Below the pieces are notes generated by a model. It did no database searches and had not been told where the DNA came from. It saw only the letters and a list, made by a program, of their open reading frames with translations. Positions 43,067 through 63,328 of a stretch of 64,000 nucleotides of DNA are shown here, piece by piece. Made by a program: the position numbers and the translations under genes. This DNA comes from Candidatus Eiseniibacteriota bacterium (GTDB taxonomy: Bacteria; Eisenbacteria; RBG-16-71-46; SZUA-252): contig OY969801.1 of the NCBI GenBank assembly GCA_963703225.1, positions 2,196,669-2,260,668 of the forward strand, in the 5' to 3' direction. The stretch's first letter is position 1; every line of letters begins with the position of its first letter.

Positions 43067-43131
43067 GATCTTCACCTCAGCGGGGCGACTCACGGCGTGG
43101 GGAATGGAGGCGGCGCTTCTGTTTGATTATG

Positions 43132-43208
43132 TGGCGCGCCCAGGAGGATTTGAACCCCCAACCTTCTGATCCGTAGTCAGACACTCTATCCAGTTGAGCT
43201 ATGGGCGC
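43132..43208 (-). tRNA. tRNA-Arg(ACG)
   Basis: tctga-CTACGGA-tcaga, CCA. Confidence 0.97.
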
Positions 43209-43235
43209 GCGCGACTGCTTTCCCGGGACCCGAGA

Positions 43236-43327
43236 TGGCGGAGAGGAGAGGATTCGAACCTCCGGACCGGTTTTACCCGATCAACCGCTTAGCAGGCGGC
43301 TGCCTTCAGCCACTCGGCCACCTCTCC
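43236..43327 (-). tRNA. tRNA-Ser(GCT)
   Basis: Anticodon loop CTGCTAA, long variable arm, CCA. Confidence 0.97.
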
Positions 43328-43381
43328 CCAGGCATGCAATCCTATTCAGCCGTAGCATGATAGCCGGGGTGGTACCGCCGG

Positions 43382-44329: not shown

Positions 44330-44332
44330 TTC

Positions 44333-45601: not shown

Positions 45602-45708
45602 GGAGAGCGCCTCAGTGAGCCTGCGAAAGGCAGACGAGTAGTCTGCAACAGGCCGCCGGCGATCACAACCGAAACGTAGCTTCGATCGTGCACAGCGCAC
45701 GATCCTGC

Positions 45709-45736
45709 TTGCATCTACTCCCGGCAGTTGTATGTT
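45709..45736 (+). promoter_or_regulatory. Sigma70-like promoter for the Arg-rich gene
   Basis: TTGCAT-16 nt-TATGTT about 110 nt upstream of the ATG. Confidence 0.45.
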
Positions 45737-45846
45737 GTGTTTGAGGGCGCCATTGGATCCAACGCCCTTGTGATCATCCCGCACGGCGACGTCCGCACAT
45801 GCAGGGGACGCCGTCAAACGCTGAACCGATGCACGGGAGGTCGATG

Positions 45847-46173
45847 ATGGCAGCAAGAAGAAGAAGGAGAAAGGCGAAGAAAGCTGTCCGGAAGACCGTA
45901 CGGCGGGTAAGAAGGCGGAAGCGCGTGGCCAAGCGCAGGGTTCGCAGGGTCGTGCGCAAGACCGTCCGCCGGAGGAGAGTCAAGAAGGCCGTTCGCCGGC
46001 GCAGGACCCGTCGCGCGGTGCGGAAGACTGTCCGCCGGAGGCGAGTCAAGAAGGCCGTCCGGCGCCGGAGAGTGAAGCGGGTTGTCCGCAAGGCAGTCCG
46101 CCGTCGCAGAAGGGCCAAGAAGGCCATCTCGGCCATGATGGAAGGCGGGCCCGAGGGCGGCGGGATGTTCTAG
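45847..46173 (+). CDS. Extremely basic Arg/Lys repeat protein (protamine / histone H1 / Hc2-like)
   Basis: 108 aa with 43 Arg and 16 Lys, about 22-aa repeat VRKTVRRRRVKKAVRRRRxxRx. GGGAGG RBS upstream, terminator downstream, synonymous codon variation between repeats. Confidence 0.8.
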   Translation: MAARRRRRKAKKAVRKTVRRVRRRKRVAKRRVRRVVRKTVRRRRVKKAVRRRRTRRAVRKTVRRRRVKKAVRRRRVKRVVRKAVRRRRRAKKAISAMMEGGPEGGGMF

Positions 46174-46203
46174 CCCGACTCATCCAGATATCGGAATCAA
46201 AGG

Positions 46204-46238
46204 CCGCCGATCGGGAAACCGGTCGGCGGTTCTTTGTT
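46204..46238 (+). terminator. Intrinsic terminator after the Arg-rich gene
   Basis: ccgccgatcgg-GAAA-ccggtcggcgg followed by ttctttgtt. Confidence 0.85.
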
Positions 46239-47097
46239 AGGTTTTGGGGCCGCTCGCGGCCGCGGAGGCCGATCGAATCGCCGCACTTCCCCCAGCGAGA
46301 ACCTTGCCGAGAAAGGCATGCACCACGGTGTTGAATTGGTCCGGCCGCTGCAGCGGCGCGAAATGGCTCACGCCCGGCAGGAGGATCAATTCCGCCCCGG
46401 GGATGGTCCGGGCCAGATATTCAGCATGCTCCGGCTTGATGAACTCGTCGTTCTCGCTTTGTACGATCGCGACGGGCACATGGATCTCCGCCAAATCGCT
46501 TGCCGAATAGTTGGGCTGCGTCTTCATCATCTCGCCGACCGCATCGGAGAACGCGCCGAATTGATCCGGCGTGGCCGACAGAAGGGAATAGTCCTTGGCG
46601 TGGCGATTGAAGCACCGTTGGAGGATCGGGCCGAACACGACCTCCCTGGTGCCGCTGGGGTCCATATTGCAGCCAAAGAAGAATACGCCCGCGATACGCG
46701 CGGGCGCCTTCATCGCCAGGATCAAAGCGATGCACGCGCCGTCGCTCCAGCCGACGACGGCTGCCCTTCCCACGTGCAATGCGTCCATCACGGCTAGAAC
46801 GTCGGATGCCATCAACTCGTACGTGTAGGACCGCGAGTCGCGTGTGCTGCGGCCGTGCCCGCGGCTATCGATGAGGACGAGGCGATAGCCAGAGCTGACC
46901 AGCATGGGAACCTGATATCCCCAATTGCCACTGTGGCCGAGGCCACCGTGCAGCAAGATTACGGGAGGGCCCGACCCATACGACGCGTACCAGATTCGAG
47001 CGCCGTCGTGGTCCACGTAGCCCTGATCGCTGCTGGCCGGCAAGGGCGCCGCACCCTGTGCTGCGAACTTCGTGAGGTCGTCGTCGAAGGATTCCAT
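46237..47097 (-). CDS. Alpha/beta hydrolase
   Basis: VILLHGGLG, IDSRGHGRS, nucleophile elbow GWSDGA, LPGVSHFAPLQ. ATG 47097 chosen as start. Confidence 0.93.
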   Translation of the reverse strand: MESFDDDLTKFAAQGAAPLPASSDQGYVDHDGARIWYASYGSGPPVILLHGGLGHSGNWGYQVPMLVSSGYRLVLIDSRGHGRSTRDSRSYTYELMASDVLAVMDALHVGRAAVVGWSDGACIALILAMKAPARIAGVFFFGCNMDPSGTREVVFGPILQRCFNRHAKDYSLLSATPDQFGAFSDAVGEMMKTQPNYSASDLAEIHVPVAIVQSENDEFIKPEHAEYLARTIPGAELILLPGVSHFAPLQRPDQFNTVVHAFLGKVLAGGSAAIRSASAAASGPKT

Positions 47098-47143
47098 GTT
47101 GAGTCTGGCCGGGCCCCAGTGCCGAAGACCTGACCGATTGAAT

Positions 47144-47202
47144 TGGCGGAGGGGGTAGGATTCGAACCCACGGTGCCTTTCAGCACAGCGGTTTTCAAGA
47201 CC
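47144..47202 (-). pseudogene. 3' half of tRNA-Ser(TGA), att-site duplication
   Basis: Runs from GGTCTTGAAA through CCA. Matches 54688-54746 except for 2 substitutions in the variable arm (GTGCT-GAAA-GGCAC vs GTGCC-GCAA-GGCAC). Confidence 0.95.
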
Positions 47203-47320
47203 TATCACTCCCGGGAGAGCATCGACGAACATCGACGAGAAGCCACCATTTCCGCATAAGTTACCCCTCACACTCCAACGATCATTCTCTCCCATGTTTG
47301 CCCTTGCGTGCTCGTGTTTT

Positions 47321-47342
47321 GGTGACCGCTAGGTGACCGCGC
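47321..47342. repeat. Tandem 11-bp-period arm-type site (ggtgaccgc x2)
   Basis: ggtgaccgcta-ggtgaccgcgc, about 120 bp inside the att duplicate. A 10-bp tandem atcgacgaac-atcgacgaga also lies at 47221-47240. Confidence 0.65.
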
Positions 47343-47403
47343 ACTCTCGAGCGCGTTGTCTGCGTCGCCGCCCGAGTCATGGGTCTTGTTGCAGAAGCCG
47401 CGG

Positions 47404-47646
47404 TCAGGGTCGCCCGTCCGGACCACGCCGCCAATCCGGCGTGAACACGAAGTAGTGGCCGAGCACCAGCTCGGCGGGCAGCCCGTTCAACCGGCACAGG
47501 AGCCACGTGTGGTAGGCGTGCTCCCGGCAGAACAGGCCGAAATCGAGCCCGCCACCGTCGACTATCCGCGACAGCTCGGTGTAGAGGTGGTTCAGCTGCC
47601 GCTTCACAGCGCGAGTCAGGATCCTCCGAGTCAGGCCCTCCGTCAC
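47404..47646 (-). CDS. Small hypothetical protein, probably a phage-like remnant
   Basis: 80-aa ORF whose GTG overlaps the stop of an upstream truncated frame ending IGTEYGIVIEEL*. Confidence 0.45.
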   Translation of the reverse strand: MTEGLTRRILTRAVKRQLNHLYTELSRIVDGGGLDFGLFCREHAYHTWLLCRLNGLPAELVLGHYFVFTPDWRRGPDGRP

Positions 47647-47680
47647 AGCTCCTCGATCACGATGCCGTACTCGGTTCCGA

Positions 47681-48712
47681 TCACCGCTTGACCTCCCAGG
47701 GCCGCGCCTGACGGTCGAGATCGGCGGCGACCCGAGCGTAGGGCATGCCCGAGATGGACAGAACCGACTTCGACTCTGGCATCAGCGTCACGTATTTTGC
47801 CGTCGTGCCGCCTCGAAAGTCTCTCACCAGGAGGCGGCCGAGCCTCCGCCAGCCGCGGTCGCCGAGCCTGCCGCTGAGCGCGCGACGGAATGCGTTGGCC
47901 ACGATGTCCGCCAGGCGCAGCCCCGAACTCGCTCGCGAGTCCTCAAAGCGCAGATCCGCCATGATCTTTCGGATGTCGCTGGAGTGGAACGGTCCGGCGC
48001 GGCCCGCCGGCATTCCCCTCTGGAGGTGATCAGGCGCTTTCGGCAGCGTGGGATTCTGGAAGGGGGCCATCGCGGAGTAGTCGAACCCCTTGAGGGAGAT
48101 CAAGCCCTCGCGAAGGGAGATCGTCTGAACCATTGGCATCACGATGTCGGTCCACGTCCGCTCGTAGTCCGTCGGCTTGCTCTCCTTCGCGTCGAGGCGC
48201 CACGAGAAGTTGCCGAGCGACTTCGGCTCGGTCTGGACGAAGCGAATCTCGCCCGCCTGCAGCGTGTTCCAGACGGCCTGCGTCAGCAGCGCTGACTGGG
48301 TGTACAGGGGAACGGAGATCGCCTCGACGCGGGAGGCGAGCGCACGGGCGTCCTCCCGCGCGGACTCCTTGAACTCCGGCCGGTCAGTCGAAGCGCGAAT
48401 CTTCTCCGCCTGCCCCCGTCTGTGCGCCTCGATATCGGCTTTGGTGTGCCGACCCATGTCGATCACGACGACGGTCAGCATCACATTGAAGTTGGTCAGA
48501 TGGGTGACCACCTTGTCGACCTGGCGCTCCGACAGCTGGCTACCCTTCGGCTCCACCTTGCCGAGCCTCCAGCCGGAGACGATCCGCTCGAACCCCGTCA
48601 GGACGACCTGCAGATCCTTCTCCCCGACGGCCAGCGCGGCGACGCAGCAGATGGACGGCGAGCCGTCGGACGGGAACGCGAAAGGGCCCGACTCGTCTAT
48701 GAAGATGTGCAA
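47681..48712 (-). CDS. DUF3800 (RNase H-like fold) protein
   Basis: N-terminal IFIDESG, C-terminal SGLRLADIVANAF. TTG start. Confidence 0.8.
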   Translation of the reverse strand: MHIFIDESGPFAFPSDGSPSICCVAALAVGEKDLQVVLTGFERIVSGWRLGKVEPKGSQLSERQVDKVVTHLTNFNVMLTVVVIDMGRHTKADIEAHRRGQAEKIRASTDRPEFKESAREDARALASRVEAISVPLYTQSALLTQAVWNTLQAGEIRFVQTEPKSLGNFSWRLDAKESKPTDYERTWTDIVMPMVQTISLREGLISLKGFDYSAMAPFQNPTLPKAPDHLQRGMPAGRAGPFHSSDIRKIMADLRFEDSRASSGLRLADIVANAFRRALSGRLGDRGWRRLGRLLVRDFRGGTTAKYVTLMPESKSVLSISGMPYARVAADLDRQARPWEVKR

Positions 48713-48770
48713 CAGCCCCCCGTCAACGCACCTTCACGATCACGCGGCTTCCCCTCGAACGACCGCACCT

Positions 48771-49035
48771 TCATTCCTCCCACAGACCTCGGCCTTCCTT
48801 CCTCGCCTTCTTCTCCAGCTTCCGAAACTCTCATCAGCTTGTTCGGGTGTACCGATTCGGGGGTGTCCACACCGATCAGCCGCACCGTCTCGGTCTTGCT
48901 CCCGATCTTCACCTTGATTGTGTCGCCATCGACGACCCTGACGACCTTGCCCCGCTCAGCGGCGTGCGCGAGTACCGGCAGCAGGACCGCTAACGCAAGT
49001 AGCGACCGAAGGAGCCGCCGCGAACCCGGGCTCAC
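48771..49035 (-). pseudogene. Thermonuclease (SNase) gene with a large internal deletion
   Basis: Signal peptide and VVRVVDGDTIKV..VRLIGVDTPESVHPNK join directly (near 48840) to the out-of-frame C-terminus EFRKLEKKARKEGRGLWEE*. Confidence 0.8.
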
Positions 49036-49064
49036 GCCGGCATTTGCCGTCGAGGATTGCAAGT

Positions 49065-49832
49065 TTAGTCCCCGCTCTTCGTTGTGCTGAGGGGCTGTGC
49101 CTTGGGTTCCAGGTCGGCCGCCGTAAACTTGCTCGAGAATTTTCGAGCCTCTTCTAGAACCGGTTCAGTAGGAGCTTCCATCACGCGCCCATCAGCGAGA
49201 CGAACCCGAGCAACGTACCCTATGGACGCGTAGTGCGCCTGGACATCATTCTCTGAGTACAGGTTCCACTCCCCAATAAGCTCCCTTGTGCCGACACTCG
49301 CGTCACCGACCTCCACGAAACTGAGGGTCCTCACATGATTCCCCCAGATGTCGAAGGTGAGAAAGTTCACCTGTACCGCCCTGATCGAATCCTTGACTGT
49401 GACTCTGAATCTGCTGCGATAGCGATATCCGTTTGCATAGAGCGTGGTTACTCCTGGAGTCCCCTCGAGATCTACCGGAATTACGCGGAAGTGCACGGCT
49501 ATCCACTCGCGCCTAAGCGAGGAGTTCTTGGCGACGGCAATCCCAAGTCCCAAATTAGTGGTTATGCTGCCGCCGTCGGCACGTGTAACGGTGGCACCTG
49601 CACTTTCGGATTTGGGCGCGACCGGTGCTTGAGCGGAGGACGACGTGTCCTTCTTGTGACGGATTGAAAGCAGATTCTCCGACGCGAAGCTTCGCACCGC
49701 CAGGTCGGCAATGACCAGAACCGTCACCGCCCCGGTGAGGATGGACAGAACGGTCGCAGTCCGGACCTTTGTCGCCGGAATGAGGCGAGTCAGCACATAG
49801 AGGCCGAGAACGATGCCAATCTCTTGAATCAT
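49065..49832 (-). CDS. Membrane-anchored hypothetical protein
   Basis: 255 aa, two N-terminal hydrophobic segments, beta-rich C-terminal domain, AGGAG RBS. Confidence 0.75.
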   Translation of the reverse strand: MIQEIGIVLGLYVLTRLIPATKVRTATVLSILTGAVTVLVIADLAVRSFASENLLSIRHKKDTSSSAQAPVAPKSESAGATVTRADGGSITTNLGLGIAVAKNSSLRREWIAVHFRVIPVDLEGTPGVTTLYANGYRYRSRFRVTVKDSIRAVQVNFLTFDIWGNHVRTLSFVEVGDASVGTRELIGEWNLYSENDVQAHYASIGYVARVRLADGRVMEAPTEPVLEEARKFSSKFTAADLEPKAQPLSTTKSGD

Positions 49833-49971
49833 GGTCGCTCCTTTGGAGCTTGTGCAGAGCGCTCCCTCGACCTAGCGAGTGTCCGACGCGCCCCTGTCGA
49901 GATGACTTCGACCAACTGATGGCAGATCAGTATCACGGTAAGGATTGATGTGCTCGGCGCGAAACCAGGAG

Positions 49972-50805
49972 TCAGCCTCGCCATCTTTTACGCCGCTGAA
50001 GTGCTGTCGTGTACCGGCACTGCGGATATGACGTGCAGCCCATGAACTTTCCCCTCGGACCCTTGATGGTGCGCAGCGGACTGCCGCACCTTGGGCAGAC
50101 GCCCGGCTCTGCGGTGGGCGTCGGGTTGAAGTCGCCGGGGACGACATCGCCCTCAGAAAGATGTTCCAGCAGGAGAGCTTGTAGCTGCGGCAATTCGATG
50201 ATCGAAATGGCCTTCCCCTTGATCCATTCCTGCGCCTGCGGCGACACCTTGCCCGTAGTAACCACGAAGGCTGACGACGCTTCCGTTGCGTGCATCGTTC
50301 CGTAGAGGTCTCTTAGGATCGGCTCACCAACGGAACCCTTCACCCGCTTACATTGGATGATCGACTTCTTCCCCTCGCGGGTCGCGTAGGCGTCCACCCC
50401 TCCATCACCGGTATACGGTGTGCGGGCCACTTCGTATCCCATGCGCTCGAATAGCTGGCAAACCAGTTCCTCAAAGTCCCTCGGGTCCATGGCCCGTACA
50501 AACTCCGGCAGTCGGATTTGTGCTAGCCACTCGGCCCGCCGCCGCCGGTGTTCGGCAGCCCGTGCTCGCGCTTCCTCCTCCTGGCGGAGCCGGGCTTCCT
50601 CGACACATTGCGGGCATAACGTCGGCACTGCTGCAGCACCCCGAAGGCCGTGGGCGCAGGGTTCAATCGCACGAGCGCGCCTTCCCCGTTGCTCTCTCCA
50701 GGCCCTTTCAATTGGGGAGAAGAGTACGGCGCCCAAGAATGGCACTACGATCCAGAGGATCCAAGGGCCGCCCAGCACATAGCCCAGTACCTTCCCGAAA
50801 TCCAT
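49972..50805 (-). CDS. Mrr-family restriction endonuclease with N-terminal TM and C-terminal topoisomerase-type Zn ribbon
   Basis: MDPRDFEELVCQLFERMGY, GDGGVDA, IQCKR, C-terminal CPRCG..GKFMGCTSYPQC. N-terminal TM and CAHG..CPQC. Confidence 0.9.
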   Translation of the reverse strand: MDFGKVLGYVLGGPWILWIVVPFLGAVLFSPIERAWREQRGRRARAIEPCAHGLRGAAAVPTLCPQCVEEARLRQEEEARARAAEHRRRRAEWLAQIRLPEFVRAMDPRDFEELVCQLFERMGYEVARTPYTGDGGVDAYATREGKKSIIQCKRVKGSVGEPILRDLYGTMHATEASSAFVVTTGKVSPQAQEWIKGKAISIIELPQLQALLLEHLSEGDVVPGDFNPTPTAEPGVCPRCGSPLRTIKGPRGKFMGCTSYPQCRYTTALQRRKRWRG

Positions 50806-50860
50806 GCCCCAGTCTATACCCAGGCCACAGTCTGGGTGGAATGGCCGAACACGGGGCTAG

Positions 50861-50995
50861 CCTCACCCTCTCAGCCCTGAGCTTCGCGTGGGACTCCGCG
50901 CCGGGTGGGGATGACCTGAGGCGGGCCGGCGGACAGGCAAGGCGACCGGGGGAACCCCGCCCCCGGGGTGATCTCGCGTCCTCGTGGCAATCCGC
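50861..50995 (+). repeat. Dispersed direct repeat, copy 1 (about 135 bp)
   Basis: Core agccc-N-gag-ttcgc-tgggactccgcgccgggtgg-ga-gacctgaggcgggcc shared with 52794-52870 and 54234-54362. Confidence 0.92.
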
Positions 50996-51108
50996 CGCAG
51001 TAGGTGGGGCCGCGACGGGCTCCGCCGTGCCTGCGCCGGGTGAGGGGACGCCAACCTGGATCCCGGGCCGGGTTGACTCCCGGCGGCTGCTGGGTGTTTG
51101 CTTTCGAG

Positions 51109-51777
51109 ATGGAGAATTACGAACCCTGCGCTGAGTGCGGGGGAATCCATCTCCCCGGGCGCCGCCGCTGCCCGCGCTGCGGTAAGGTGCACGTCGTAGG
51201 GCCGCCAGATCCCGCCCGTGTCCGGTACCTCGCTCTTGACTACGAGTGCCCGGCACCGGTCCTGCGCCTCGAGTATCCGCTCCTGCCGTCGGCGATGGGC
51301 CGGACGGCCATCGTTCCAGCGGTGGACAAATCCGGCCGGGAGCCGAGCGAGCGCTTTCAGGGGGCACTCTTTGCTCACGCCTTGACCGAGCTGTCTGGAT
51401 ATCACGTTCACGTCGGGTTCGGCCCGAAGGAACACCGCGCGGGCGACGAGGATTGCGTCGTGCGCTGGCAGGTCGACGAGGACTTCGACTTTTCCCCGGT
51501 TCAACTCAAGCGCCTCGTATCCGCCGAGACAAACGCCTCGGCCGATCTGGAGCGCGACGTGAACCGGAAGCTGGAGGGAGTCATCGCTCCGACGCTGCAC
51601 TTCGTTTGGACGATCAACCGCGAGATGCTCCTGAAGCCTCGGGAGCTGCGGCTCCCTGGGCTCCAGGTCGCGGGCGTCTGGATCCTCAACTCCGCCGGCC
51701 CCGACGGGACGCGCTGGCACCTCCATGGCGACTTCGTCCACCGCATCGTCGGCCTTGAGCTCCCATACCCGCAATGA
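51109..51777 (+). CDS. Zn-ribbon + putative PD-(D/E)xK-type nuclease
   Basis: N-terminal CAEC..CPRC and a GDEDC..PVQLK motif resembling D..D..QxK nuclease sites. Family assignment is inference. Confidence 0.6.
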   Translation: MENYEPCAECGGIHLPGRRRCPRCGKVHVVGPPDPARVRYLALDYECPAPVLRLEYPLLPSAMGRTAIVPAVDKSGREPSERFQGALFAHALTELSGYHVHVGFGPKEHRAGDEDCVVRWQVDEDFDFSPVQLKRLVSAETNASADLERDVNRKLEGVIAPTLHFVWTINREMLLKPRELRLPGLQVAGVWILNSAGPDGTRWHLHGDFVHRIVGLELPYPQ

Positions 51778-52511
51778 GGGATCCGCACGTCGAGTCCATC
51801 ATCTACCGTCTGGAGGACCCCGACGTATTCTTCGAGGGGGTCCGCGACCTGCCTGTCGACAACCCCGATTTCCGCGGCCTCCTGTCAGACGGTACGCTCA
51901 CGCTCAGGCCGAAAGCCCATTTTTCCACCGTAGAGGAGGCCCGTGTCCCCGCTGACGCGTTCGTGCGGGCTTGGGAGATTTCGGGAGGCCTGGCGCTGGG
52001 TCATCCCGGATTCCAATTCCGCTTCGAGGCCGCCGAAGCCGTAGGCATGGATCCCGACACGGGCAAACCCGTGGATCAATTCACAGCGGTCGTCCCGGCC
52101 GTGGTGACCGCCACTCTCCATGTCCAGGTGCCGAAGGGCACCTACCCGCCTCCCCCTCAGGTCTCGCGCGCCGATCCAGACGCAGAAGCAATGTGGAACC
52201 GGTTCAGCGGGTATCTCGAGGGAAAGGAGCCGCTTCTGGGTATGGCCTACGCCTGCCTCACGATTCTCGAGCGCGGCGAGCATAGAAGGGACGCGGCCGC
52301 CCGGCTCTCGATCAGCCTCGCGGTCTTGAGCAAGTTGGGCAATCTGAGTTCTGCCCGAGGAGACAAGCGGAGCGCGCGGAAGTGGCATCCCCGAAATTCC
52401 CCGCTCACCCCAGATGAGGAAGCTTGGGTTCGGGCCGCCATTCAGGCAATCATCAAGCATCTCCTGACACGGATGTCGGGCCAGAAGCTCTCGATGAGCG
52501 ATGTTCTATAG
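51774..52511 (+). CDS. Hypothetical protein translationally coupled (ATGA) to the upstream nuclease-like gene, possibly HEPN-like
   Basis: 245 aa. Helical C-terminal half with an Rx5H-like RSARKWH motif. Confidence 0.7.
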   Translation: MRDPHVESIIYRLEDPDVFFEGVRDLPVDNPDFRGLLSDGTLTLRPKAHFSTVEEARVPADAFVRAWEISGGLALGHPGFQFRFEAAEAVGMDPDTGKPVDQFTAVVPAVVTATLHVQVPKGTYPPPPQVSRADPDAEAMWNRFSGYLEGKEPLLGMAYACLTILERGEHRRDAAARLSISLAVLSKLGNLSSARGDKRSARKWHPRNSPLTPDEEAWVRAAIQAIIKHLLTRMSGQKLSMSDVL

Positions 52512-52559
52512 CTTTCAGTTTGGTTTCAGGGCCTCTGGACTCGCTGTAAGGCCTCGGCC

Positions 52560-52965
52560 ATGAGTTCCAAGGGCGGCAGTGCCAGTAAGGGCGGCGAGGA
52601 GGCGAAGCGCGGCAAGATCTCCGAGAAGCGGATTCCGTTCGAGTCGGGCGATTTCTATCTCATCATCGCGCGGCGGGCGCTGGAGGAGGCGCTGCCCCCC
52701 CGACGGCGTCCATCTCGGCGGGTGGACTTTCAGCGAGGAGCCGCTCGTCGAGAAGCTGCCGTCGGATCACTTCCGGTTCGCGGTGACGTGGGCCCTCACC
52801 AACGCAGCCCGGAGGTTCGCATGGGACTCCGCGCCGGGTGGGGAGGACCTGAGGCGGGCCGGGCAGACAATCTCTACACTTTCTGGGCCGCTCCCCATGA
52901 GCCGCCCTACGAATGGAGAATCCCAACGAACGCGCGAGGGCTCCACGAGCCAAAGCTGGGGGTAG
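52560..52965 (+). pseudogene. Short hypothetical gene with a frameshift in a C7 run, reading into repeat copy 2
   Basis: MSSKGG..RRALEEALPP then, in the +1 frame after 52695-52701, DGVHLGGWTFSEEPLVEKLPSDHFRFAVTWALTNAARRFAWDSAPGGEDLRRA. Confidence 0.45.
52794..52870 (+). repeat. Dispersed direct repeat, copy 2 (core only)
   Basis: cctcacc..cagcccggaggttcgcatgggactccgcgccgggtggggaggacctgaggcgggccgggcagacaa. Confidence 0.92.
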
Positions 52966-52985
52966 CCCGTCCCCAACCCTGTTGC

Positions 52986-53015
52986 TGGACAACCCGTTAA
53001 CGGGGTGGGTACACT
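52986..53015 (+). promoter_or_regulatory. Promoter of the FRG gene with a palindrome in the spacer
   Basis: TGGACA-18 nt-TACACT. The spacer holds the perfect 12-bp palindrome cccgttaacggg. Confidence 0.45.
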
Positions 53016-53022
53016 GCCCGGC

Positions 53023-54045
53023 ATGAAAAATCCGCCACGAGAGCCAACCCTCATCGATCTCATCGAATCGGGCGAGGCTAATGACGGCATCGTCCAGGTG
53101 CAGGTGAAAACCTGGCCCGCCTTTGTGGAATACGTGAGGCTTCTTGGAATCAACCCCAGCTTCATTTGGCGGGGACAGCGTAGAAGTGATTGGGACCTGA
53201 CGGCTCTGCTCTATCGAGAGCAAGCGCTGGGTGGACTCGGAGTCCCTCGGGACAAGGAAGGGGAGGCAATGATGTACCGCCACCTCGAGGCGTTCAAACG
53301 TGCGGCTCGTGGTCGCCGAGGGCCGAATCCTCCACCTCTTGCGAACGAGAACGACTGGTGGGCCCTTGGCCAACACTACGGCCTCGCAACTCCCCTGATC
53401 GACTGGACGGGGTCCCCGTTTGCCGCCGCGTACTTCGCGTTCTACGAGAGTGTTCCTAAGGATGAGACTCCGGAGCGGGCTATCTTTGCGCTGGATCGTG
53501 CCACCGTGAGGCGAGAGTGGATGGACCGCTGGACCGAGATCGTGTTGCGGGAACGGGCCCACATTCAGATGCAGCGCCGCGCGACTGACAAAGCAGCGCT
53601 CACTATGAGCACGACGTTCAAGGGACCGGGGCAAATTCAGGATGAGCTTGAGGAAGAGGAACGAGAGGCGCGAGTGGAGGAGCAGAGGCGCAGAGAGCGG
53701 CATCGCAGCGAGAATCCGCTCATGGACTTCGTCGAGCCCCTGGGGGATGAGAATACCCGGCTCGTGAATCAGAACGGCATGTTCACGCGAACGCAGGACG
53801 GGGTGGATGTCGGGGCGTACGTCAAGAGGATGTTTGCCGGGCGCGACGACACGATCCTCTTCAAGATCACAATCCCAAATTCGGAGCGCGAGACCGCGAT
53901 GTGTGCGCTCAACCAGATGAATATCAACCACGCGACGCTCTTCCCAGATCTGTATGGCGCAGGGACGTTCTGCAATATGCGGTGGAAGATTCCGGGCTAC
54001 GCCGACCTCTACGACGTTCCAATACCGCCCGAGTTCGTGGCTTAG
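53023..54045 (+). CDS. FRG domain protein
   Basis: FIWRGQ..W.L, WWALGQHYGLATPLIDWTGSPFAAAYFAF, RLVNQNGMFT, LNQMNINHATLFPDLYG. Confidence 0.93.
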   Translation: MKNPPREPTLIDLIESGEANDGIVQVQVKTWPAFVEYVRLLGINPSFIWRGQRRSDWDLTALLYREQALGGLGVPRDKEGEAMMYRHLEAFKRAARGRRGPNPPPLANENDWWALGQHYGLATPLIDWTGSPFAAAYFAFYESVPKDETPERAIFALDRATVRREWMDRWTEIVLRERAHIQMQRRATDKAALTMSTTFKGPGQIQDELEEEEREARVEEQRRRERHRSENPLMDFVEPLGDENTRLVNQNGMFTRTQDGVDVGAYVKRMFAGRDDTILFKITIPNSERETAMCALNQMNINHATLFPDLYGAGTFCNMRWKIPGYADLYDVPIPPEFVA

Positions 54046-54233
54046 CATTCCTCCTCCAGCGACTTCATGTGGCGCTCGAACTCCTCCCGGTTGAACCGAA
54101 GCGTCAGCTTGACCCCGCCCAACGCGGTTCGGTCTCTCCTCTCCCGACATCTAGGTAACGGAAAATCTTCGGCACCGACGCGGAAGGAAAATCTGTGGGG
54201 CGTCGCTTACGTGTTTGGGGCACGAGGAAGTCG

Positions 54234-54362
54234 ACCCTCTTAGCCCAGAGGTTCGCATGGGACTCCGCGCCGGGTGGTGAGGACCTGAGGCGGGCCAGCG
54301 GGCAGGCAAAGCGACCGAGGACCCTTCTCCCCGGGTGATCGCCCGTCGTGGGGGCAATCCGC
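54234..54362 (+). repeat. Dispersed direct repeat, copy 3 (about 130 bp)
   Basis: Colinear with copy 1 from accctct to ggcaatccgc, with about 9 mismatches in the first 83 nt. Confidence 0.92.
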
Positions 54363-54608
54363 TTCCTATCGAGGCATAGCTACCCCTAGAATTAGGTTCA
54401 GAGCGGTAGGGAGGCATCCAAGTACGGCTACAGACACGCCCCGCATCCACTCCGGGGGTAAGTCGCTCATTCGTCGCGGGAATGTCGCGGATCGAAATGG
54501 TGACTTTCTCCAATACTGGTGCGGGTTGTCGCGGTGTCGCGTTTCATTTGGAGGAGTGAGAAGAAAGGAGAGCAGGGGGAGCAGAAACAGGGTGGGCCTG
54601 GGCGGTTA

Positions 54609-54630
54609 GGTTACCGAATGGTGACCGCAG
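54609..54630. repeat. Tandem 11-bp-period arm-type site at the other island end
   Basis: ggttaccgaat-ggtgaccgcag, same orientation as 47321-47342. Confidence 0.6.
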
Positions 54631-54687
54631 CCTGTAGATCGCTAGCGAGGACCTGATCTTCGAGGAACCGCAATTCATTGCAGGTCA

Positions 54688-54775
54688 TGGCGGAGGGGGT
54701 AGGATTCGAACCCACGGTGCCTTGCGGCACAGCGGTTTTCAAGACCGCCGCCTTAAACCACTCGGCCACCCCTCC
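54688..54775 (-). tRNA. tRNA-Ser(TGA), intact
   Basis: gcggt-CTTGAAA-accgc, variable arm, TTCGAAT, CCA. Confidence 0.97.
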
Positions 54776-54940
54776 GCGCGCTGCAGTGCAGCATCTTAGC
54801 TGAAACGACGGCGGTGGCGCTCGCGGGCAACAACGCTTATGCCGCGCATACGCGGGACGATTTGGGGCCGACTTGCTCGCGCGGAAGTATCCGAGGGCGA
54901 ATCGCATTGACATCGTCAGGCCCGCGACACCGCAGCGCGC

Positions 54941-56965
54941 CTACTGAAGTACCGCGATCCGTCCTGTGAGCGCTCCGTCGGGTGTATCCACTCGGTAGAA
55001 GTACACGCCGGAAGAGACGCCACCGCCACCCGCCCCACCTACGTCGATCCTCACTTCGTGGAATCCAGCCGGCAGCACGCATCGCGGGAGGAGCGCCCGT
55101 ACCAGCCGCCCCTGAAGGTCGAAGAGCTGCACACCGACCGTTCCTGGCCGCGATGTCTTGAACGTCAATGTGCCTGCCGGGTTCAGGGGATTGGGGACGA
55201 CCAAAGCACCGCCGGTACGTCGGGGCGGCTCCACAAGCCGCACCAGGTCGGAGCCCCCGAACCGCTGCCCCGTTATCAGCGATCCCGTTACCGCCACTTC
55301 ATTCACCCCCGGCACGAGGTGAGGCAGCAGTGCATCTCGGCTGAACTTGAGCATCAGCTCTGGAATCCCGTCCTTGTCGAAGTCCCCTCCCGCTCTGGGT
55401 CTCGCCTCTGCGGGCACGGACCCCGCGAGGCGAACGGAGGAGATGTCGACGGCCTGCGGGTCGAACTCGCTGGACTCGATGTAGGCGGTCAGCCGGGCGC
55501 CGCCTCCCGATGCGTGGATCACGTTCGGGTCCAGATTCAGTGCGGCCGCGAGCAAGGCGCGTGGCGTGCCCAGGACAAACGCGCGTCCGGCGTCCGGCCC
55601 TCCGCTGTCGCTCCCGTGCGCTCCCACGACCAGGTCCGCGCGACCGTCGTCGTCCACGTCGCCAGCCGTCCCGACGGAGGAGCCGAAGAAATCGTCCGCG
55701 GGCGCCGTGAGCACGAGATCGGGAGAGGCGTCGGCGCTCGGGCCACCGAGGTAGACGCACACGCGACCCGGTCGCTCCGAGCCGGCGACAAAGTGGGACG
55801 ATCCCGCGAGGATGTCGGCGTAACCGTCTCCGTCCACGTCCCCCGCGGTTCCCACCGAAACTCCGAAGAAGAGGGAGGGCGGCTCTCCAGCAAGCGTGAG
55901 GTCCGCCAGGGCGTCTGCTGCGGGCCCCCCGTAGTACACGTACGCGCGTCCCGCCTTTTCTCCGTCGTCACTGTTGAAGGGCGCGCCCACCATGATGTCG
56001 GCGTATCCATCACTGTTCACGTCTCCCGCTGTCCCAACAGAGGACCCGAACTGGTCGGCCTCCCCGGCTCCGGTGAGAACGAGATCCGCCGTTGCGTCCG
56101 CACCGGGACCGCCAAAGTACACGTAGGCACGGCCTGCGTCCCCCCCGCCCGAGGCGTTCGTCGGAGCGCCTACGATGAGGTCAGCGTATCCATCACCGTT
56201 CACGTCCCTCGCCGCTCCGACCGAGGCGCCGAAGTGATCGCCTTCGACTTCGCCGCTGAGAACGAGGTCAGGCACGGCGTCGGCGCGCGGCCCGCCGAAA
56301 TACACGTAGGCGCTACCCGCCAGGCCCTCCCCCGGTTGACAGACTCTTCCAAAGATGTCGCAAGGGTCGGCCGGCGCGCCGACGATAACGTCGTCATAGC
56401 CGTCCCCGTTCCAGTCCCCGGCGGCCCCCACGGCGACCCCGAACCCCTCCGATGCCACCATCCGCGTGAGGACAAGGTCGGCGACGACGTCCGGAGGCGT
56501 ACCCCCGTAGTATACGTAGGCTCGATCACTCGCGCCCACGATCACGTCGGCATAGCCGTCCCCGTTCACGTCGCCGGCTGCGGCGACGGCGGCCCCAAGC
56601 CCGAGTCCCGCCGACGTGCCGGTGAACGCTATGCCTGCTACTCCGTCGGTACGGGGGCCACCGTAATACAGGTAAGCTCGCCCCGCCTGGCTGCCACCGG
56701 CATCGTTTCCGTGCGCACCGATGATCACGTCGGCGTAGCCGTCCCCGTTCACGTCGCCGGCCGCGGCGACGGCCGAGCCCAGGTCGTCGCCGGCGGCCTC
56801 GCCCGTCACGACGAACAGGGTGTCGACGGAGATCGCCTGGACCTCAGGCGCGCCCGCAAACAGGAGGAGGCCTACCGTGATCGGGAAAAGTGCGGCGGCG
56901 CCTGGGGCCGGCCCGAGGCGATAGTCGGTTCGACAATGCAATAGGAACGTGCGCATCGCAGCCAT
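54941..56965 (-). CDS. Secreted FG-GAP (integrin beta-propeller) repeat protein with FlgD-Ig/T9SS-type C-terminal domain
   Basis: About 7 repeats of FGxxVxxAGDVNGDGYADxIVGA..GRAYVYxGG. C-terminal PNPLNP..LFDLQGRLVR..SSGVYFYRV. AAAGGAG RBS before ATG 56965. Confidence 0.9.
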   Translation of the reverse strand: MAAMRTFLLHCRTDYRLGPAPGAAALFPITVGLLLFAGAPEVQAISVDTLFVVTGEAAGDDLGSAVAAAGDVNGDGYADVIIGAHGNDAGGSQAGRAYLYYGGPRTDGVAGIAFTGTSAGLGLGAAVAAAGDVNGDGYADVIVGASDRAYVYYGGTPPDVVADLVLTRMVASEGFGVAVGAAGDWNGDGYDDVIVGAPADPCDIFGRVCQPGEGLAGSAYVYFGGPRADAVPDLVLSGEVEGDHFGASVGAARDVNGDGYADLIVGAPTNASGGGDAGRAYVYFGGPGADATADLVLTGAGEADQFGSSVGTAGDVNSDGYADIMVGAPFNSDDGEKAGRAYVYYGGPAADALADLTLAGEPPSLFFGVSVGTAGDVDGDGYADILAGSSHFVAGSERPGRVCVYLGGPSADASPDLVLTAPADDFFGSSVGTAGDVDDDGRADLVVGAHGSDSGGPDAGRAFVLGTPRALLAAALNLDPNVIHASGGGARLTAYIESSEFDPQAVDISSVRLAGSVPAEARPRAGGDFDKDGIPELMLKFSRDALLPHLVPGVNEVAVTGSLITGQRFGGSDLVRLVEPPRRTGGALVVPNPLNPAGTLTFKTSRPGTVGVQLFDLQGRLVRALLPRCVLPAGFHEVRIDVGGAGGGGVSSGVYFYRVDTPDGALTGRIAVLQ

Positions 56966-57126
56966 GGAACGCTCCTTTCCGCAAAGGCCGGAGCGGGGGA
57001 CCGGATCTGGAGGGACGCTGGCGCCGGATCGGAACGCGTCACCTGGGGGAGGTGTACGCGCCTCCAACAATCGATTCTAACATCCCGCCGATCATACGCC
57101 CACCTAACCCAACGGCATCGGAGTGC

Positions 57127-57146
57127 TGCTACAGTTTTGCTACAGT
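57127..57146. repeat. Tandem 11-bp-period repeat (tgctacagt x2), arm-site-like
   Basis: tgctacagttt-tgctacagt. An inverted-orientation relative (tgtagt x2) lies at 57381-57398. Confidence 0.55.
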
Positions 57147-57193
57147 CTCAATGCTCCCAAAGACGCCCCACCAGCTACCGCGGGCTCCGGACG

Positions 57194-57234
57194 CGAGAAC
57201 GCCCCGCAGGGCCCAACCCCTTGGGGCGTTCTCG
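57194..57234. terminator. 12-bp perfect inverted repeat next to the 5' tRNA half
   Basis: cgagaacgcccc-17 nt-ggggcgttctcg. Confidence 0.5.
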
Positions 57235-57289
57235 AACAGCTTGAGCGAAGCGGACTTGGCCGGCCCCCGGCATCCCGGGCCATATCGAA

Positions 57290-57328
57290 TTTCAAGACCG
57301 CCGCCTTAAACCACTCGGCCACCCCTCC
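57290..57328 (-). pseudogene. 5' half of tRNA-Ser(TGA)
   Basis: 39 nt identical to 54737-54775 (plus 4 shared upstream nt), ending exactly at the last base of the anticodon loop. Confidence 0.95.
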
Positions 57329-57458
57329 GCGCTTGCGACGCAACAGGATATGCGATCCCCCTAGAACATGCACGGAGCGGTGTAGTCTACGATGTAGTTT
57401 CCCGCACGGAAAACCGCGTCCGCGTAGAGCCAGGCGGCCGACCGCGAGATCGACGACT

Positions 57459-57974
57459 TCATGACCGTCCCACGCTCGCGCCCAGGGTGACGAGAAGCTC
57501 GTCCAGTTGCTCGAACGTCTCTCCCATCGCATCCGCCGCCCCGGTGCCGGCGGCGTCGAGAGCTTCCTTCGAGGGATAGAACTCGCGCATGACCAGCAAC
57601 GTCTTGCCGCCTTTTTCCGCGAAGGTCACCGTCGTGACGGAACCCTCGTCACTTTCCTCATTGGTCCAGACGAGGCGCGAGTGCGGTGCTACTTCCTTGT
57701 ACGTGCCGAAGAACGCCGACTGTGAGTCCCCGTGTGCGAACTCCAAACGGTACCTGCCCCCGACACGAACATCCATTTCGCAGGAAAGCAGGGACATTCC
57801 CATCGACTTCGGCACCCACCACTGCCTGAACAGCTCGGGCTTGGTCCACGCCTCGAACACGAGGCGCGCCGGGCCGTTGAAGGTTCGTGTAACGACTAAC
57901 TCCCGCTCGGACTTCCGTTCCACCGTCGTGCGGTTCTCCATGGGGGTAGGCTCACTCTCTCTTCTTGCGTCCAT
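57459..57974 (-). CDS. SRPBCC (Aha1/START-like) family protein
   Basis: ELVVTRTFNGPARLVFEAWTKPELFRQWW, CEMDVRVGGRYR, EQLDELL. Confidence 0.93.
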   Translation of the reverse strand: MDARRESEPTPMENRTTVERKSERELVVTRTFNGPARLVFEAWTKPELFRQWWVPKSMGMSLLSCEMDVRVGGRYRLEFAHGDSQSAFFGTYKEVAPHSRLVWTNEESDEGSVTTVTFAEKGGKTLLVMREFYPSKEALDAAGTGAADAMGETFEQLDELLVTLGASVGRS

Positions 57975-58317
57975 CGACCTTCTCCTTCCGTTTTAGTTCC
58001 TCAACAACTCTGTCCAGCTCGTCGAAGCGTGCATCCCAGAGCTGGCGGTACCTCTTGATCCATGCCGACTCTTCCTCCAGTCGGCGCAGGCCGAGCTTGC
58101 AGGTCCGCACGCGCCCGACCTTCTCCGTGGTGACGAGACCCGCCTGCTCCAAGACGCCGACGTGCTTCTTCATGCCCGTCAGGGTCATGTGGAATTTCTC
58201 GGCAAGGTCCGTGATCGAAGCGTCCGCACGCCCGAGCTGCTCCAGAACGCCGCGTCGGGTGGCGTCCGAGAGCGCTGCGAACGAGGCATCGAAGCCGGTC
58301 CGGACATACTGAACCAT
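57952..58317 (-). CDS. ArsR/SmtB family transcriptional regulator
   Basis: FAALSDATRRGVL, KHVGVLEQAGLV, GRVRTCKL, WDARFDELD. Confidence 0.94.
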   Translation of the reverse strand: MVQYVRTGFDASFAALSDATRRGVLEQLGRADASITDLAEKFHMTLTGMKKHVGVLEQAGLVTTEKVGRVRTCKLGLRRLEEESAWIKRYRQLWDARFDELDRVVEELKRKEKVDGRKKRE

Positions 58318-58329
58318 GTGGTTCAGTAT
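58306..58329. promoter_or_regulatory. ArsR autoregulatory operator (11-2-11 perfect palindrome over the start codon)
   Basis: atactgaacca-tg-tggttcagtat. Confidence 0.8.
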
Positions 58330-58530
58330 ATAACACGGAAAAGCAGCATGCAAGGGGAGGCTGAGCGCGCGCTGCGCGGCGCACGCGCGCGCTGAAGTTC
58401 CCTCGAGGCGCCGTCGCGGCACAACTCCTCTTGAGCCGGTGACATCTGTCCTGCATGATTACCGCTAGGATGCCACCCACGCCAGCGGCGCGGTGGAACA
58501 AGAATCGGCCCGCACGCTTCGTAAGTCACG

Positions 58531-62195: not shown

Positions 62196-62202
62196 GACAG
62201 GG

Positions 62203-63252: not shown

Positions 63253-63271
63253 TCATGAGGCTCTCAGCCTT

Positions 63272-63288: not shown

Positions 63289-63328
63289 ATTTGAGCGCCC
63301 TCTCCTGCCCTCCCGTGTCCCCCGATGG

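What the first reader, a model, noticed from the sequence alone, without database searches (positions are those of the whole stretch)
50861..54362. Three copies of an unexplained 77-135 bp direct repeat partition the island cargo into cassettes
Seen: copies at 50861-50995, 52794-52870 and 54234-54362, same orientation, about 89% identical over the core, lying between cargo units: Mrr | R1 | nuclease-like + partner + small ORF | R2 | FRG | R3 | att arm. They occur nowhere else in the window. The core folds as CGCC-GGGT-(GGnGAnG loop)-ACCT-GA-GGCG with the variable positions in the loop, and the long copies have a second GCGA..TCGC hairpin with variable loop. Several substitutions are also synonymous in two frames (+: FAWDSAPGG[D/E]DLRRA; -: ARLRSSPPGAESHA). 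They match no attC (no RYYYAAC/GTTRRRY), IS end, REP or ribozyme consensus I can recognise. Inference: a possibly undescribed cassette-recombination site for shuffling defence genes (integron-like logic without attC), or a structured RNA/ssDNA element, or a repeated remnant of a backbone gene.
Basis: partly seen in the sequence, partly recalled or inferred. Interest (0 to 1): 0.72.

Follow-up and report, generated by a model that had tools for sequence, protein, structure and literature searches.

The report
Conserved junction repeat between defence-gene modules
A roughly 70-135 base sequence with a 29-base nearly invariant centre (25 bases unchanged in all seven copies) sits three times, head to tail, between unrelated defence-gene modules of a small mobile island, and recurs between quite different defence genes in other soil bacteria, so it looks like a reusable module boundary whose mechanism is unknown.

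Summary
Three same-strand copies exist: R1 50861-50995, R2 52794-52870, R3 54234-54362. They share an invariant 20-mer found nowhere else in the window.

All three lie inside a 7,485-bp island (47203-54687). It sits at tRNA-Ser(TGA) between 59-bp att repeats, is absent from a 99%-identical sister strain, and encodes no recognisable recombinase.

Four further copies occur in three soil-metagenome contigs. They lie between modules unrelated to the window's cargo, which is F+G and FRG/PDC-S15. One contig carries TIR-AbiTii-ATPase, then a copy, then two unknown genes, then a copy. Others lie beside an XRE-type gene and beside a STAS gene.

Positions 0..+24 never vary and +25..+28 vary in one column. 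The arms are 60-93% identical and are replaced by unrelated sequence at copy-specific breakpoints.

There is no Rfam match, no covariation and no unusual fold energy. No reading frame explains the conservation.

My best reading, at about 35%, is a protein-recognised DNA joint where modules are exchanged, with the enzyme acting in trans. This is inferred, not shown. A small gene or leader, a decayed mobile-element end and an inert gene remnant remain open.

The parts
50861..50995 (+). R1. The profile match begins at 50832 and the invariant 20-mer is at 50889-50908. The right arm to 50995 is shared with R3. R1 lies 56 nt upstream of the divergent Mrr start (50805) and ~100 nt upstream of F.
51033..51058 (+). 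Possible degenerate half copy of the core (GCGCCGGGTGAGGGGACGCCAACCTG), just upstream of the F start. Two public short-read contigs begin at 51045, inside it.
   Evidence: weak; score in the top ~0.5% of windows
52794..52870 (+). R2. The profile match is 52763-52861 and the 20-mer is at 52822-52841. The right arm is cut off after about +47. R2 overlaps the called ORFs 52560-53000 (146 aa) and a 59-aa ORF that starts at the ATG inside the core.
54234..54362 (+). R3. The profile match begins at 54197 and the 20-mer is at 54258-54277. It is the longest copy, 152 nt after the FRG stop and 325 nt from the tRNA-Ser 3' end.
47144..47202 (-). Distal att copy: 59 nt of the tRNA-Ser 3' half, with 2 mismatches to the intact gene (island-borne variant).
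47203..54687 (.). The 7,485-bp island that carries all R copies. It is absent from sister-strain contig L012 and contains no integrase.
54688..54775 (-). Intact tRNA-Ser(TGA). Its 3' 59 nt form the proximal att copy.
49972..50805 (-). Mrr_cat + Top1 zinc-ribbon nuclease. This is the module to the left of R1.
51094..52511 (+). Module between R1 and R2: F (zinc-ribbon protein, 227-257 aa) and G (245 aa), whose coding regions overlap by 4 nt. Neither matches any family.
53005..54045 (+). Module between R2 and R3: an FRG-domain protein that matches the candidate defence family PDC-S15 (E=1e-73).

Best explanation
R is a conserved, non-coding, orientation-fixed junction element. It has a ~29-nt nearly invariant centre, TGGGACTCCGCGCCGGGTGG-N-GA-N-G-N-CCT. 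This centre is flanked by arms that differ from copy to copy.

It sits at the boundaries between self-contained gene modules, mostly defence genes. In the window it lies inside a small, mobile, integrase-less tRNA-Ser island.

I think the centre is most likely a double-stranded DNA site recognised by a protein encoded elsewhere. Modules would be joined, lost or swapped at this site, so that each exchange replaces an arm plus its cargo but regenerates the centre.

Shown:
- The repeat is real.
- The centre is conserved at the nucleotide level.
- Copies lie at module boundaries in four independent loci.
- The cargo is unrelated between loci.
- Copies within a locus are in direct orientation.
- Arm breakpoints are copy-specific.
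- The island as a whole is mobile.

Inferred:
- Recombination happens at the centre.
- It is site-specific rather than RecA-driven homologous exchange on a ~30-70-nt anchor.
- The enzyme acts in trans.
For: (1) Recurrence with different cargo.
- The three window copies bracket F+G and FRG/PDC-S15.
- Contig L004 has two direct copies, at 3500-3618 and 5787-5885.
- Its layout is TIR-AbiTii-HATPase | copy | 258-aa + 318-aa genes | copy.
- L007 has one copy between an unknown gene and an XRE-type HTH operon.
- L006 has one copy after a STAS gene.
- No cargo protein of one locus resembles any of another.

(2) Each segment between copies holds exactly one operon. Cargo can face either way relative to R. 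This argues against a promoter, leader or terminator that serves the cargo.

(3) The constraint is on nucleotides.
- Among six copies, 2 of 29 centre columns vary.
- That compares with 13 of 30 in the left arm and 7 of 12 just to the right.
- L004b was found by proximity, not by the search pattern.
- It is identical over 0..+24, although its left arm is only 14-20/31 identical to the other copies and its right arm is unrelated.
- Five degenerate third positions of the frame-c codons GGA CTC CGC GCC GGG never change, while the neighbouring CCN codon shows all four bases.

(4) Arm replacement abutting the centre.
- L004a is 97% identical to L007 over -42..+28 and then unrelated.
- L004a is 93% identical to R1 over -28..+60.
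- The right arms fall into three unrelated types that start at about +29 to +33.
- R2 is cut off at about +47.

(5) The three copies of the island are not each other's nearest relatives. In the left arm, R1 matches L004a and L007 at 26/30 but R2 and R3 at 22/30 and 21/30. The copies therefore did not arise by recent local duplication.

(6) The island is a discrete mobile unit. Sister contig L012 joins window 47202 to 54688 with a 59-nt overlap and has no R copy in 20 kb. The distal att copy carries an island-specific variant.
Against: - No recombinase, transposase or relaxase domain is found in the island or in the three homologous contigs.
- No dyad symmetry typical of tyrosine-recombinase core sites is evident by inspection.
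- There is no direct evidence of deletion or circle junctions. The served runs cover the organism at about 2x only.
- The left-arm and right-arm groupings of the seven copies are compatible with a single tree plus arm replacements. Reciprocal crossover inside the centre is not demanded.
- Ascertainment: three of the four outside copies were found with a pattern that fixed 21 centre positions. Part of their centre invariance is forced, and diverged relatives would have been missed.
- Only seven copies in four loci are known.
- The exact 20-mer is absent from the 185,579 representative genomes, apart from a coding look-alike.
Confidence: 0.35

Rival explanations
1. R is a self-contained small gene or cis-regulatory unit. 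The candidates are a short ORF (frame c: M-D-R-P-H-x-L-S-P-E-L-R-V-G-L-R-A-G-W-G-R-P...), a small RNA, or an operator for an island regulator. It would travel with defence modules because it controls or accompanies them.
For: - L004a, L006 and L007 share an ATG preceded by a purine-rich Shine-Dalgarno-like stretch (GGGGGAG in L006). Their frame reads through the centre.
- L004b has its own in-frame ATG.
- Gene callers called this frame in L010 and L011, and called ORFs through R2.
- The variable base just before the 20-mer is G, A or T but never C, giving GTG, ATG or TTG in that frame. R2 and R3 also have GGAGG/AGAGG five nt upstream of it.
- L004b and L007 share a further ~100 nt upstream at ~71% identity that could hold a promoter.
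- Four of seven copies face the start of a divergent operon.
- From memory, untested: G-L-R-A-G resembles the G-I-R-A-G of the SecM arrest peptide.
Against: - In R1 a TAG precedes the motif and a TGA follows GLRAGWG. In R3 a TGA follows GLRAGW.
- The peptide after the centre is unrelated in every copy.
- No protein in the 5.8-billion collection shares words with the short ORF.
- Degenerate third positions of the centre do not vary, which a peptide alone would not require.
- No covarying structure, no Rfam family and no terminator follows consistently.
- A leader should precede a co-oriented gene. It does so for R1 and R2, but not for R3, L004a or L007.
Confidence: 0.2
2. R is the decayed remnant of a non-autonomous mobile element, or of the protein-binding end of a larger element (transposon end, arm-type or iteron-like sites, oriT-like site). 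It would have inserted into, or been left behind in, intergenic DNA of variable regions. Module boundaries are simply where such DNA is tolerated.
For: - The position is always intergenic, whatever the orientation of the neighbours.
- A TGGGAC-like word recurs on one strand at about -60, 0 and +19 in the four outside copies, against 1.25 per kb in the window.
- CCGGGTG recurs in the R1 and R3 right arms and in the half copy at 51036.
- Contigs of independent assemblies end close to copies.
Against: - No terminal inverted repeats or target duplications are present.
- The ends are ragged and different in every copy, not sharp and shared.
- The 12-nt word CCGGGTGGGGAC is not enriched in the window: 20 found against 17 expected. 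No inverted copy lies at the island ends.
- No transposase is nearby.
- There were no hits in the plasmid collection or in viral contigs.
Confidence: 0.15
3. R is an inert scar. A piece of a coding gene (its 5' part) was duplicated each time DNA was inserted next to it, as at other insertion scars noted in this genome. Its likeness between copies would reflect shared descent, not function.
For: - Nested truncations (R3 longest, R1 lacking the far left, R2 lacking the right) look like remnants.
- Five of six variable centre columns fall in one codon phase.
- Frame c reads S-P-E-L-R-V-G-L-R-A-G-W. A putative lipoprotein gene (LVIVD-like by my unverified reading) in three Gemmatimonadales MAGs reads S-P-D-P-R-V-G-L-R-A-G-W with 33 of 37 nt identical.
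- Earlier notes on this genome describe duplicated gene ends flanking insertions.
Against: - An inert scar should decay evenly. Here the centre is invariant while the arms are 60-93% identical, including in the unbiased copy L004b.
- Frame a has no ATG, GTG or TTG between the upstream stop and the motif in L004a and L007.
- The frame-a reading of R2 has no convincing homologue: one marginal multi-stretch hit (E=1.1e-4) to a 1520-aa repetitive protein among 1.84 billion representatives, and none in the 5.8-billion set.
- The lipoprotein-gene likeness is one independent hit seeded by an exact 20-mer in 596 Gb. I estimate that one to a few GC-rich chance hits are expected.
- No copy continues into that gene.
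Confidence: 0.15
4. R is a structured single-stranded element (attC-like folded DNA or a ribozyme/riboswitch-like RNA) built on the hairpin CGCC-GGGT-loop-ACCT-GA-GGCG.
For: - The hairpin can be drawn in six of seven copies.
- Two of the variable positions lie in its loop.
Against: - Fold energies are not better than shuffles on either strand: z from -0.35 to +2.3.
- RNAalifold finds 16 pairs, none with compensatory change. Several are broken, and the covariation term is unfavourable at +1.25.
- No Rfam family matches even at E up to 10.
- I saw no RYYYAAC...GTTRRRY ends by inspection.
Confidence: 0.05

Closest known systems
Integron attC sites, especially the uniform attC repeats of sedentary chromosomal integrons (from my own knowledge: Vibrio cholerae repeats, ~120 nt, ~90% alike)
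   Same: Directly repeated, species-specific sequences of ~70-130 nt separate single-operon cassettes. These can include phage-defence genes. The copies are more alike in a short conserved part than elsewhere.
   Different: R has no integron integrase, no attI and no RYYYAAC/GTTRRRY ends. It has no long imperfect palindrome and no favourable single-strand fold. Cargo lies in either orientation. The array sits inside a tRNA-Ser island bounded by 59-bp att repeats.
pdif (XerC/XerD) modules of Acinetobacter plasmids and other Xer-exploiting elements
   Same: Short conserved sites partition accessory genes into exchangeable modules. The enzyme is encoded elsewhere in the genome.
   Different: By inspection, the R centre has no 11-6-11 dif-like dyad. 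All copies are in direct orientation rather than alternating. The conserved part is longer (29 nt plus arms).
tRNA-targeting genomic islands and their tandem arrays (for example the tycheposons of Prochlorococcus, from my own knowledge)
   Same: The host structure is a small cargo island at a tRNA gene with partial-tRNA direct repeats, present or absent between close strains.
   Different: In those arrays the internal partitions are partial tRNA (att) repeats. Here the internal repeats are unrelated to the tRNA, and the island has no integrase.
Orphan-module arrays of polymorphic toxin loci (CDI, Rhs) and 'minimal mobile elements' swapped by homologous recombination
   Same: Short conserved segments, repeated in direct orientation, flank variable modules and serve as homology for swapping.
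   Different: Those repeats are in-frame pieces of a large parent gene that is present at the locus. R has no parent gene, and its cargo is not fused in frame.

Membership tests
Integron attC / CALIN | Imperfect palindrome with R''(RYYYAAC)-L''...L'-R'(GTTRRRY) that folds as a single-strand hairpin | tested here: not met
   Fold z-scores run from -0.35 to +2.3 on both strands. There is no covariation and several pairs are broken. Inspection of the sequence shows no matching end motifs. No dedicated attC model was available.
Integron attC / CALIN | Nearby intI integrase and attI (complete integron) | tested here: not met
   No integrase domain appears in any ORF of the island or of L004, L006 or L007.
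Xer/dif (pdif) modules | 28-nt site with two 11-nt inverted arms around a 6-nt spacer, in alternating orientation along the array | tested here: not met
   By inspection of the alignment, the centre has no such dyad. All copies within a locus are direct.
MITE / REP-type dispersed repeats | Defined ends (terminal inverted repeats or a palindromic unit), target duplication, and many copies per genome | tested here: inconclusive
   No inverted terminal repeats were found and the ends are ragged. There are only 3 copies (plus a half copy) in 64 kb and none in 20 kb of the sister strain.
Any Rfam RNA family | Covariance-model score at or near the family threshold | tested here: not met
   There were no hits on any R copy at the gathering threshold or at E up to 10 (window) or E up to 1 (L004, L006, L007).
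Tyrosine-integrase tRNA island (applies to the host island, not to R) | Direct repeat of the tRNA 3' part at both ends, and an empty site in a relative | tested here: met
   There is a 59-nt repeat at 47144-47202 and 54688-54746. L012 joins the flanks with a 59-nt overlap. The distal copy carries 2 island-specific changes.
Tyrosine-integrase tRNA island (applies to the host island, not to R) | Integrase gene next to the tRNA-proximal end | tested here: not met
   The 325 nt between R3 and the tRNA, and all island ORFs, lack integrase domains.
Remnant of a protein-coding gene | An open, startable frame with homologues elsewhere | tested here: not met
   Frame a has no convincing homologue: one marginal multi-stretch hit (E=1.1e-4) to a 1520-aa repetitive protein. 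It also has no start codon in L004a or L007. Frame c has stops in R1 and R3 and no database relatives. The minus-strand frame was not searched by homology.

The most novel reading that the evidence does not exclude
R is the recombination site of an undescribed cassette system. A trans-encoded recombinase would recognise the asymmetric 29-nt centre, which is neither attC nor dif. It would insert, excise and reshuffle single-operon defence cassettes inside small integrase-less tRNA islands of uncultured soil bacteria. This would be integron-like logic built on a different site and enzyme.
Probability: 0.15. Interest if true: 0.85.

Novelty: new variant of a known kind. Interest (0 to 1): 0.55.

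Why it matters
Defence genes are known to cluster and to turn over quickly. Outside integrons and a few hotspot types, the DNA signals that let single systems be swapped are mostly unknown.

Here a short sequence with a nucleotide-level invariant centre marks the seams between unrelated defence modules. It does so in several uncultured soil bacteria, and in the window it lies inside an island that is present or absent between 99%-identical strains.

If the centre is a recombination site, it would define a new route for shuffling immune genes and give a handle (the site) for finding its enzyme. If it is instead a small gene or operator, it would be a shared control element of otherwise unrelated defence systems. 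Either way it is a concrete, testable sequence. If it turns out to be an inert scar, the finding is ordinary.

Tried and rejected
The genome-wide copy number and a search for a partner recombinase were therefore impossible.

Collection scans:
- The exact 20-mer in genome contigs gave only a coding look-alike in three orthologous Gemmatimonadales MAG loci.
- The first metagenome pattern, with 22 fixed bases, found nothing.
- The second pattern, degenerate at one codon phase, found 3 real loci and 2 chance hits in what reads as a phosphofructokinase-type gene (not checked).
- Viral contigs (two patterns) and plasmids gave nothing.

Protein-level searches:
- The joined two-frame 'H' protein found nothing.
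- Frame a of R2 against 1.84 billion representatives gave one marginal hit (E=1.1e-4) to a repetitive 1520-aa protein.
- The frame-c short ORF found nothing.
- Pfam, PADLOC and NCBIfam gave nothing for the ORFs overlapping R2 and R3 or for the unknown cargo. The R1-overlapping ORFs were not scanned.

RNA:
- Rfam (three searches), single-sequence folds and RNAalifold were all negative.

Reads:
- Only three soil runs are served. They cover the organism at about 2x, so no junction test was possible.
- The Logan contigs that do carry the island could not be delivered as DNA.

Context extension:
- L013 is identical to L004, and L009-L011 add nothing new.

Ideas considered and dropped:
- Diversity-generating retroelement template/variable repeats: there is no reverse transcriptase and the variable sites are not adenine-specific.
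- Sigma-54 or ECF promoter: the spacing does not fit and the spacer is conserved.
- Orphan toxin-tip modules: cargo is not in frame and faces either way.
- Iteron enrichment of CCGGGTGGGGAC: not significant.
- dif site and attC site: see the membership tests.

Full report
**1. The observation**

Three direct copies are present at the coordinates given.
- Pairwise identities are 89.9% (R1-R2, 69 nt), 91.2% (R2-R3, 68 nt) and 84.0% (R1-R3, 131 nt).
- The 20-mer TGGGACTCCGCGCCGGGTGG is identical in all three. With up to three mismatches allowed it occurs nowhere else in 64 kb, where 0.05 matches are expected.
- A profile HMM of the element finds no further copy in the window.
- One degenerate half copy may lie at 51033-51058. 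The 10-mer GCGCCGGGTG occurs only at the three cores and there. Its alignment score is only in the top ~0.5% of windows, so this is weak.

**2. The setting**

tRNA-Ser(TGA) lies at 54688-54775 on the minus strand. Its 3' 59 nt are repeated at 47144-47202.

A 251-kb contig of a sister strain was reached through its 99%-identical hydrolase (L012). It aligns to window 64000-54688 at 99.9% and to 47202-36261 at 99.2%. The two alignments overlap by exactly those 59 nt.

The island is therefore 47203-54687, 7,485 bp. It is present in one strain and absent in the other. L012 has no R copy in 20 kb.

The empty-site tRNA equals the intact window copy. The distal copy differs at two bases, as expected if the island brought its own att variant and crossed over in the 3' ~40 nt.

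The island encodes, in order:
- a DUF3800 protein;
- a truncated SNase-like ORF;
- an unknown 255-aa protein;
- an Mrr-type nuclease with a Top1 zinc ribbon;
- then R1, followed by F and G (no family matches);
- then R2, followed by an FRG protein that matches the candidate defence family PDC-S15 at 1e-73;
- then R3.

No integrase, transposase or relaxase domain is present.

**3. Relatives elsewhere**

The exact 20-mer in 185,579 representative genomes hits only three orthologous loci in Gemmatimonadales MAGs.
- The hits lie inside what I read as a lipoprotein gene downstream of a separate upstream gene. The family names (LVIVD-like; DUF305-like upstream) are my reading of the sequence and were not checked against any library. 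The gene reads ...SPDPRVGLRAGWM....
- The likeness is 33/37 nt at best and covers 44 profile positions.
- I count this as one independent hit. For a GC-rich 20-mer in 596 Gb I estimate that one to a few chance hits are expected, so I treat it as unresolved and probably coincidental.

A first metagenome pattern found nothing. A second, degenerate at every third base, found five contigs.
- Two are chance hits in what reads as a phosphofructokinase-type gene (not checked against any library).
- Three are real: L004, L006 and L007.
- L004 holds a second, more diverged copy that the pattern itself did not match.

This gives seven copies in four loci.

**4. What flanks them**

- L004: TIR, AbiTii and a GHKL-type ATPase (one operon), then copy a, then a 258-aa and a 318-aa gene (one operon), then copy b. 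All genes lie on the strand opposite to R.
- L007: an unknown gene, then the copy, then an XRE-type HTH gene with a partner.
- L006: a STAS gene, then the copy, then the contig end. A second assembly ends at the same place.
- An all-against-all BLASTP of cargo proteins finds no relationship between loci.

Every segment between copies holds one operon, and cargo can face either way. Four copies face the start of a divergent operon, and three follow a co-oriented gene. This fits neither a promoter or leader nor a terminator serving the cargo.

**5. Anatomy and conservation**

All copies share about -30 to +40 relative to the first base of the 20-mer. Pair-specific extensions are:
- R1/R3 to +106;
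- L004a/R1 to +60;
- L004a/L006/L007 to -42;
- L006/L007 to -60;
- L004b/L007 to about -118, at ~71% identity.

Within 0..+28, two columns vary among six copies, and a third varies in L004b. By contrast, 13 of 30 columns vary in the left arm and 7 of 12 just to the right.

There is an ascertainment caveat. Three outside copies were found with a pattern that fixed 21 of these positions. Three things are not forced by that pattern:
- the pattern's free positions are also invariant;
- the three window copies were found without it;
- L004b, found only by proximity, is identical over 0..+24 while its arms are 14-20/31 identical to the other copies or unrelated.

The constraint acts on nucleotides. 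In the frame that reads GLRAGW, five degenerate third positions never change, while the adjacent proline codon shows all four bases.

**6. Coding tests**

Frame a (FAWDSAPGG):
- It has no ATG, GTG or TTG between the upstream stop and the motif in L004a and L007.
- A joined 'H' reading of R2 and the frame-a piece had no convincing homologues. The first search gave nothing; the search of 1.84 billion representatives gave one marginal multi-stretch hit (E=1.1e-4) to a 1520-aa repetitive protein.

Frame c (…SPELRVGLRAGWG…):
- It has an ATG with a Shine-Dalgarno-like stretch in L004a, L006 and L007, and its own ATG in L004b.
- Gene callers used this frame.
- In R1 a TAG precedes the motif and a TGA follows it. 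In R3 a TGA follows GLRAGW.
- Everything after the centre is unrelated, and no database protein shares words with it.

The minus-strand frame was not searched by homology. No frame explains why the centre does not vary.

**7. RNA tests**

- No Rfam family matches, even at permissive thresholds.
- Fold energies are not better than shuffles.
- RNAalifold finds 16 pairs with no compensatory change, several broken pairs and an unfavourable covariation term.

**8. Relationships among copies**

- In the left arm, R1 is closer to L004a and L007 (26/30) than to R2 (22/30) or R3 (21/30). R2 is closest to L006 (25/30). The island's copies are therefore not recent local duplicates.
- L004a has the left arm of L006/L007 (97% to L007 up to +28) and the right arm of R1/R3 (93% to R1 up to +60). 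Identity collapses abruptly at about +29.
- These groupings are compatible with one tree plus several arm replacements. They show repeated breakage and rejoining next to the centre, not necessarily reciprocal crossover within it.

**9. Mechanism**

The centre behaves like a site read as DNA. It is asymmetric, about 29 nt long, fixed in orientation within a locus, and retained while both arms and the cargo are replaced.

I therefore favour a protein-recognised joint at which modules are exchanged, with the enzyme encoded elsewhere. RecA-driven exchange on this short anchor is the less specific variant of the same idea.

The missing recombinase, the absence of junction reads, the small sample and the ascertainment bias hold confidence to about 0.35.

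Two Logan contigs from different runs begin at window 51045, inside the possible half copy. I could not obtain their DNA, so this stays unexplained. The served runs cover the organism at about 2x.

**10. Comparison with known systems**

R works most like an attC or pdif type of module boundary. It fails the defining tests of both: no palindrome or fold, no end motifs, no integron integrase, no dif dyad and no alternating orientation.

The host island meets the tRNA-island criteria except for the integrase.

I file R as a new variant of the 'conserved site between exchangeable modules' kind, with function unproven.

Earlier notes of this scan call the genome Candidatus Eisenbacteria and describe duplicated gene ends at other insertion scars in it. 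I did not verify either. The second keeps the 'inert scar' rival alive.

Noticed in passing
window 57290-57332 and 54737-54779; L012 7310-7352 and 9863-9905: A 43-nt perfect copy of the 5' half of tRNA-Ser(TGA) lies 2.5 kb beyond the intact gene. It brackets a single FG-GAP repeat protein gene (54941-57070). The duplication is present in both the window and the sister strain, so it is an older, fixed insertion on the 5' side of the same tRNA.
   Followed up: partly
window 52560-53000, with a run of C at about 52695-52702: Two overlapping frames each read like real protein for part of the way: KRIPFESGDFYLIIARRALEEALPP, then, in another frame, DGVHLGGWTFSEEPLVEKLPSDHFRFAVTW. They switch at a run of eight C. 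This may be a frameshifted small gene that runs into R2. The same 146-aa ORF is called in independent Logan assemblies. No homologues were found.
   Followed up: partly
window 51045 (Logan contigs from ERR15459708 and ERR12036786): Two short-read contigs from different runs start at exactly the same base, inside the possible half copy of the core. A third run gives a 7,555-bp contig spanning the whole island from att to att. This could be a population variant junction or a coverage drop in 70%-GC DNA. The DNA was not obtainable.
   Followed up: no
window 46237-47097 (minus strand): The alpha/beta hydrolase next to the distal att copy has homologues at 80-85% identity in Phyllobacterium, in Dongiaceae, Terrimicrobium and Armatimonadota MAGs and in many soil contigs, and at 75-76% in Paraburkholderia. 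It is itself widely transferred. The long ORF call (352 aa) runs through the att copy and is too long.
   Followed up: partly
L001 1448-1495, L002 2312-2353, L003 5913-5975: A putative lipoprotein gene of Gemmatimonadales MAGs shares 33/37 nt and the peptide SP(D/E)xRVGLRAGW with frame c of the repeat. My LVIVD-like and DUF305-like labels for this gene and its upstream neighbour are unverified. The likeness is either chance or the distant source of the element.
   Followed up: partly
window 48697-49062 (minus strand): A 121-aa ORF matches only the first half of the staphylococcal nuclease domain, below threshold. It overlaps the next gene and is probably a truncated remnant inside the island.
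   Followed up: no
window 36261-47202 versus 54688-64000, compared with L012: The two flanks of the island differ in identity to the sister strain: 99.2% on the hydrolase side and 99.9% on the tRNA side.
   Followed up: no
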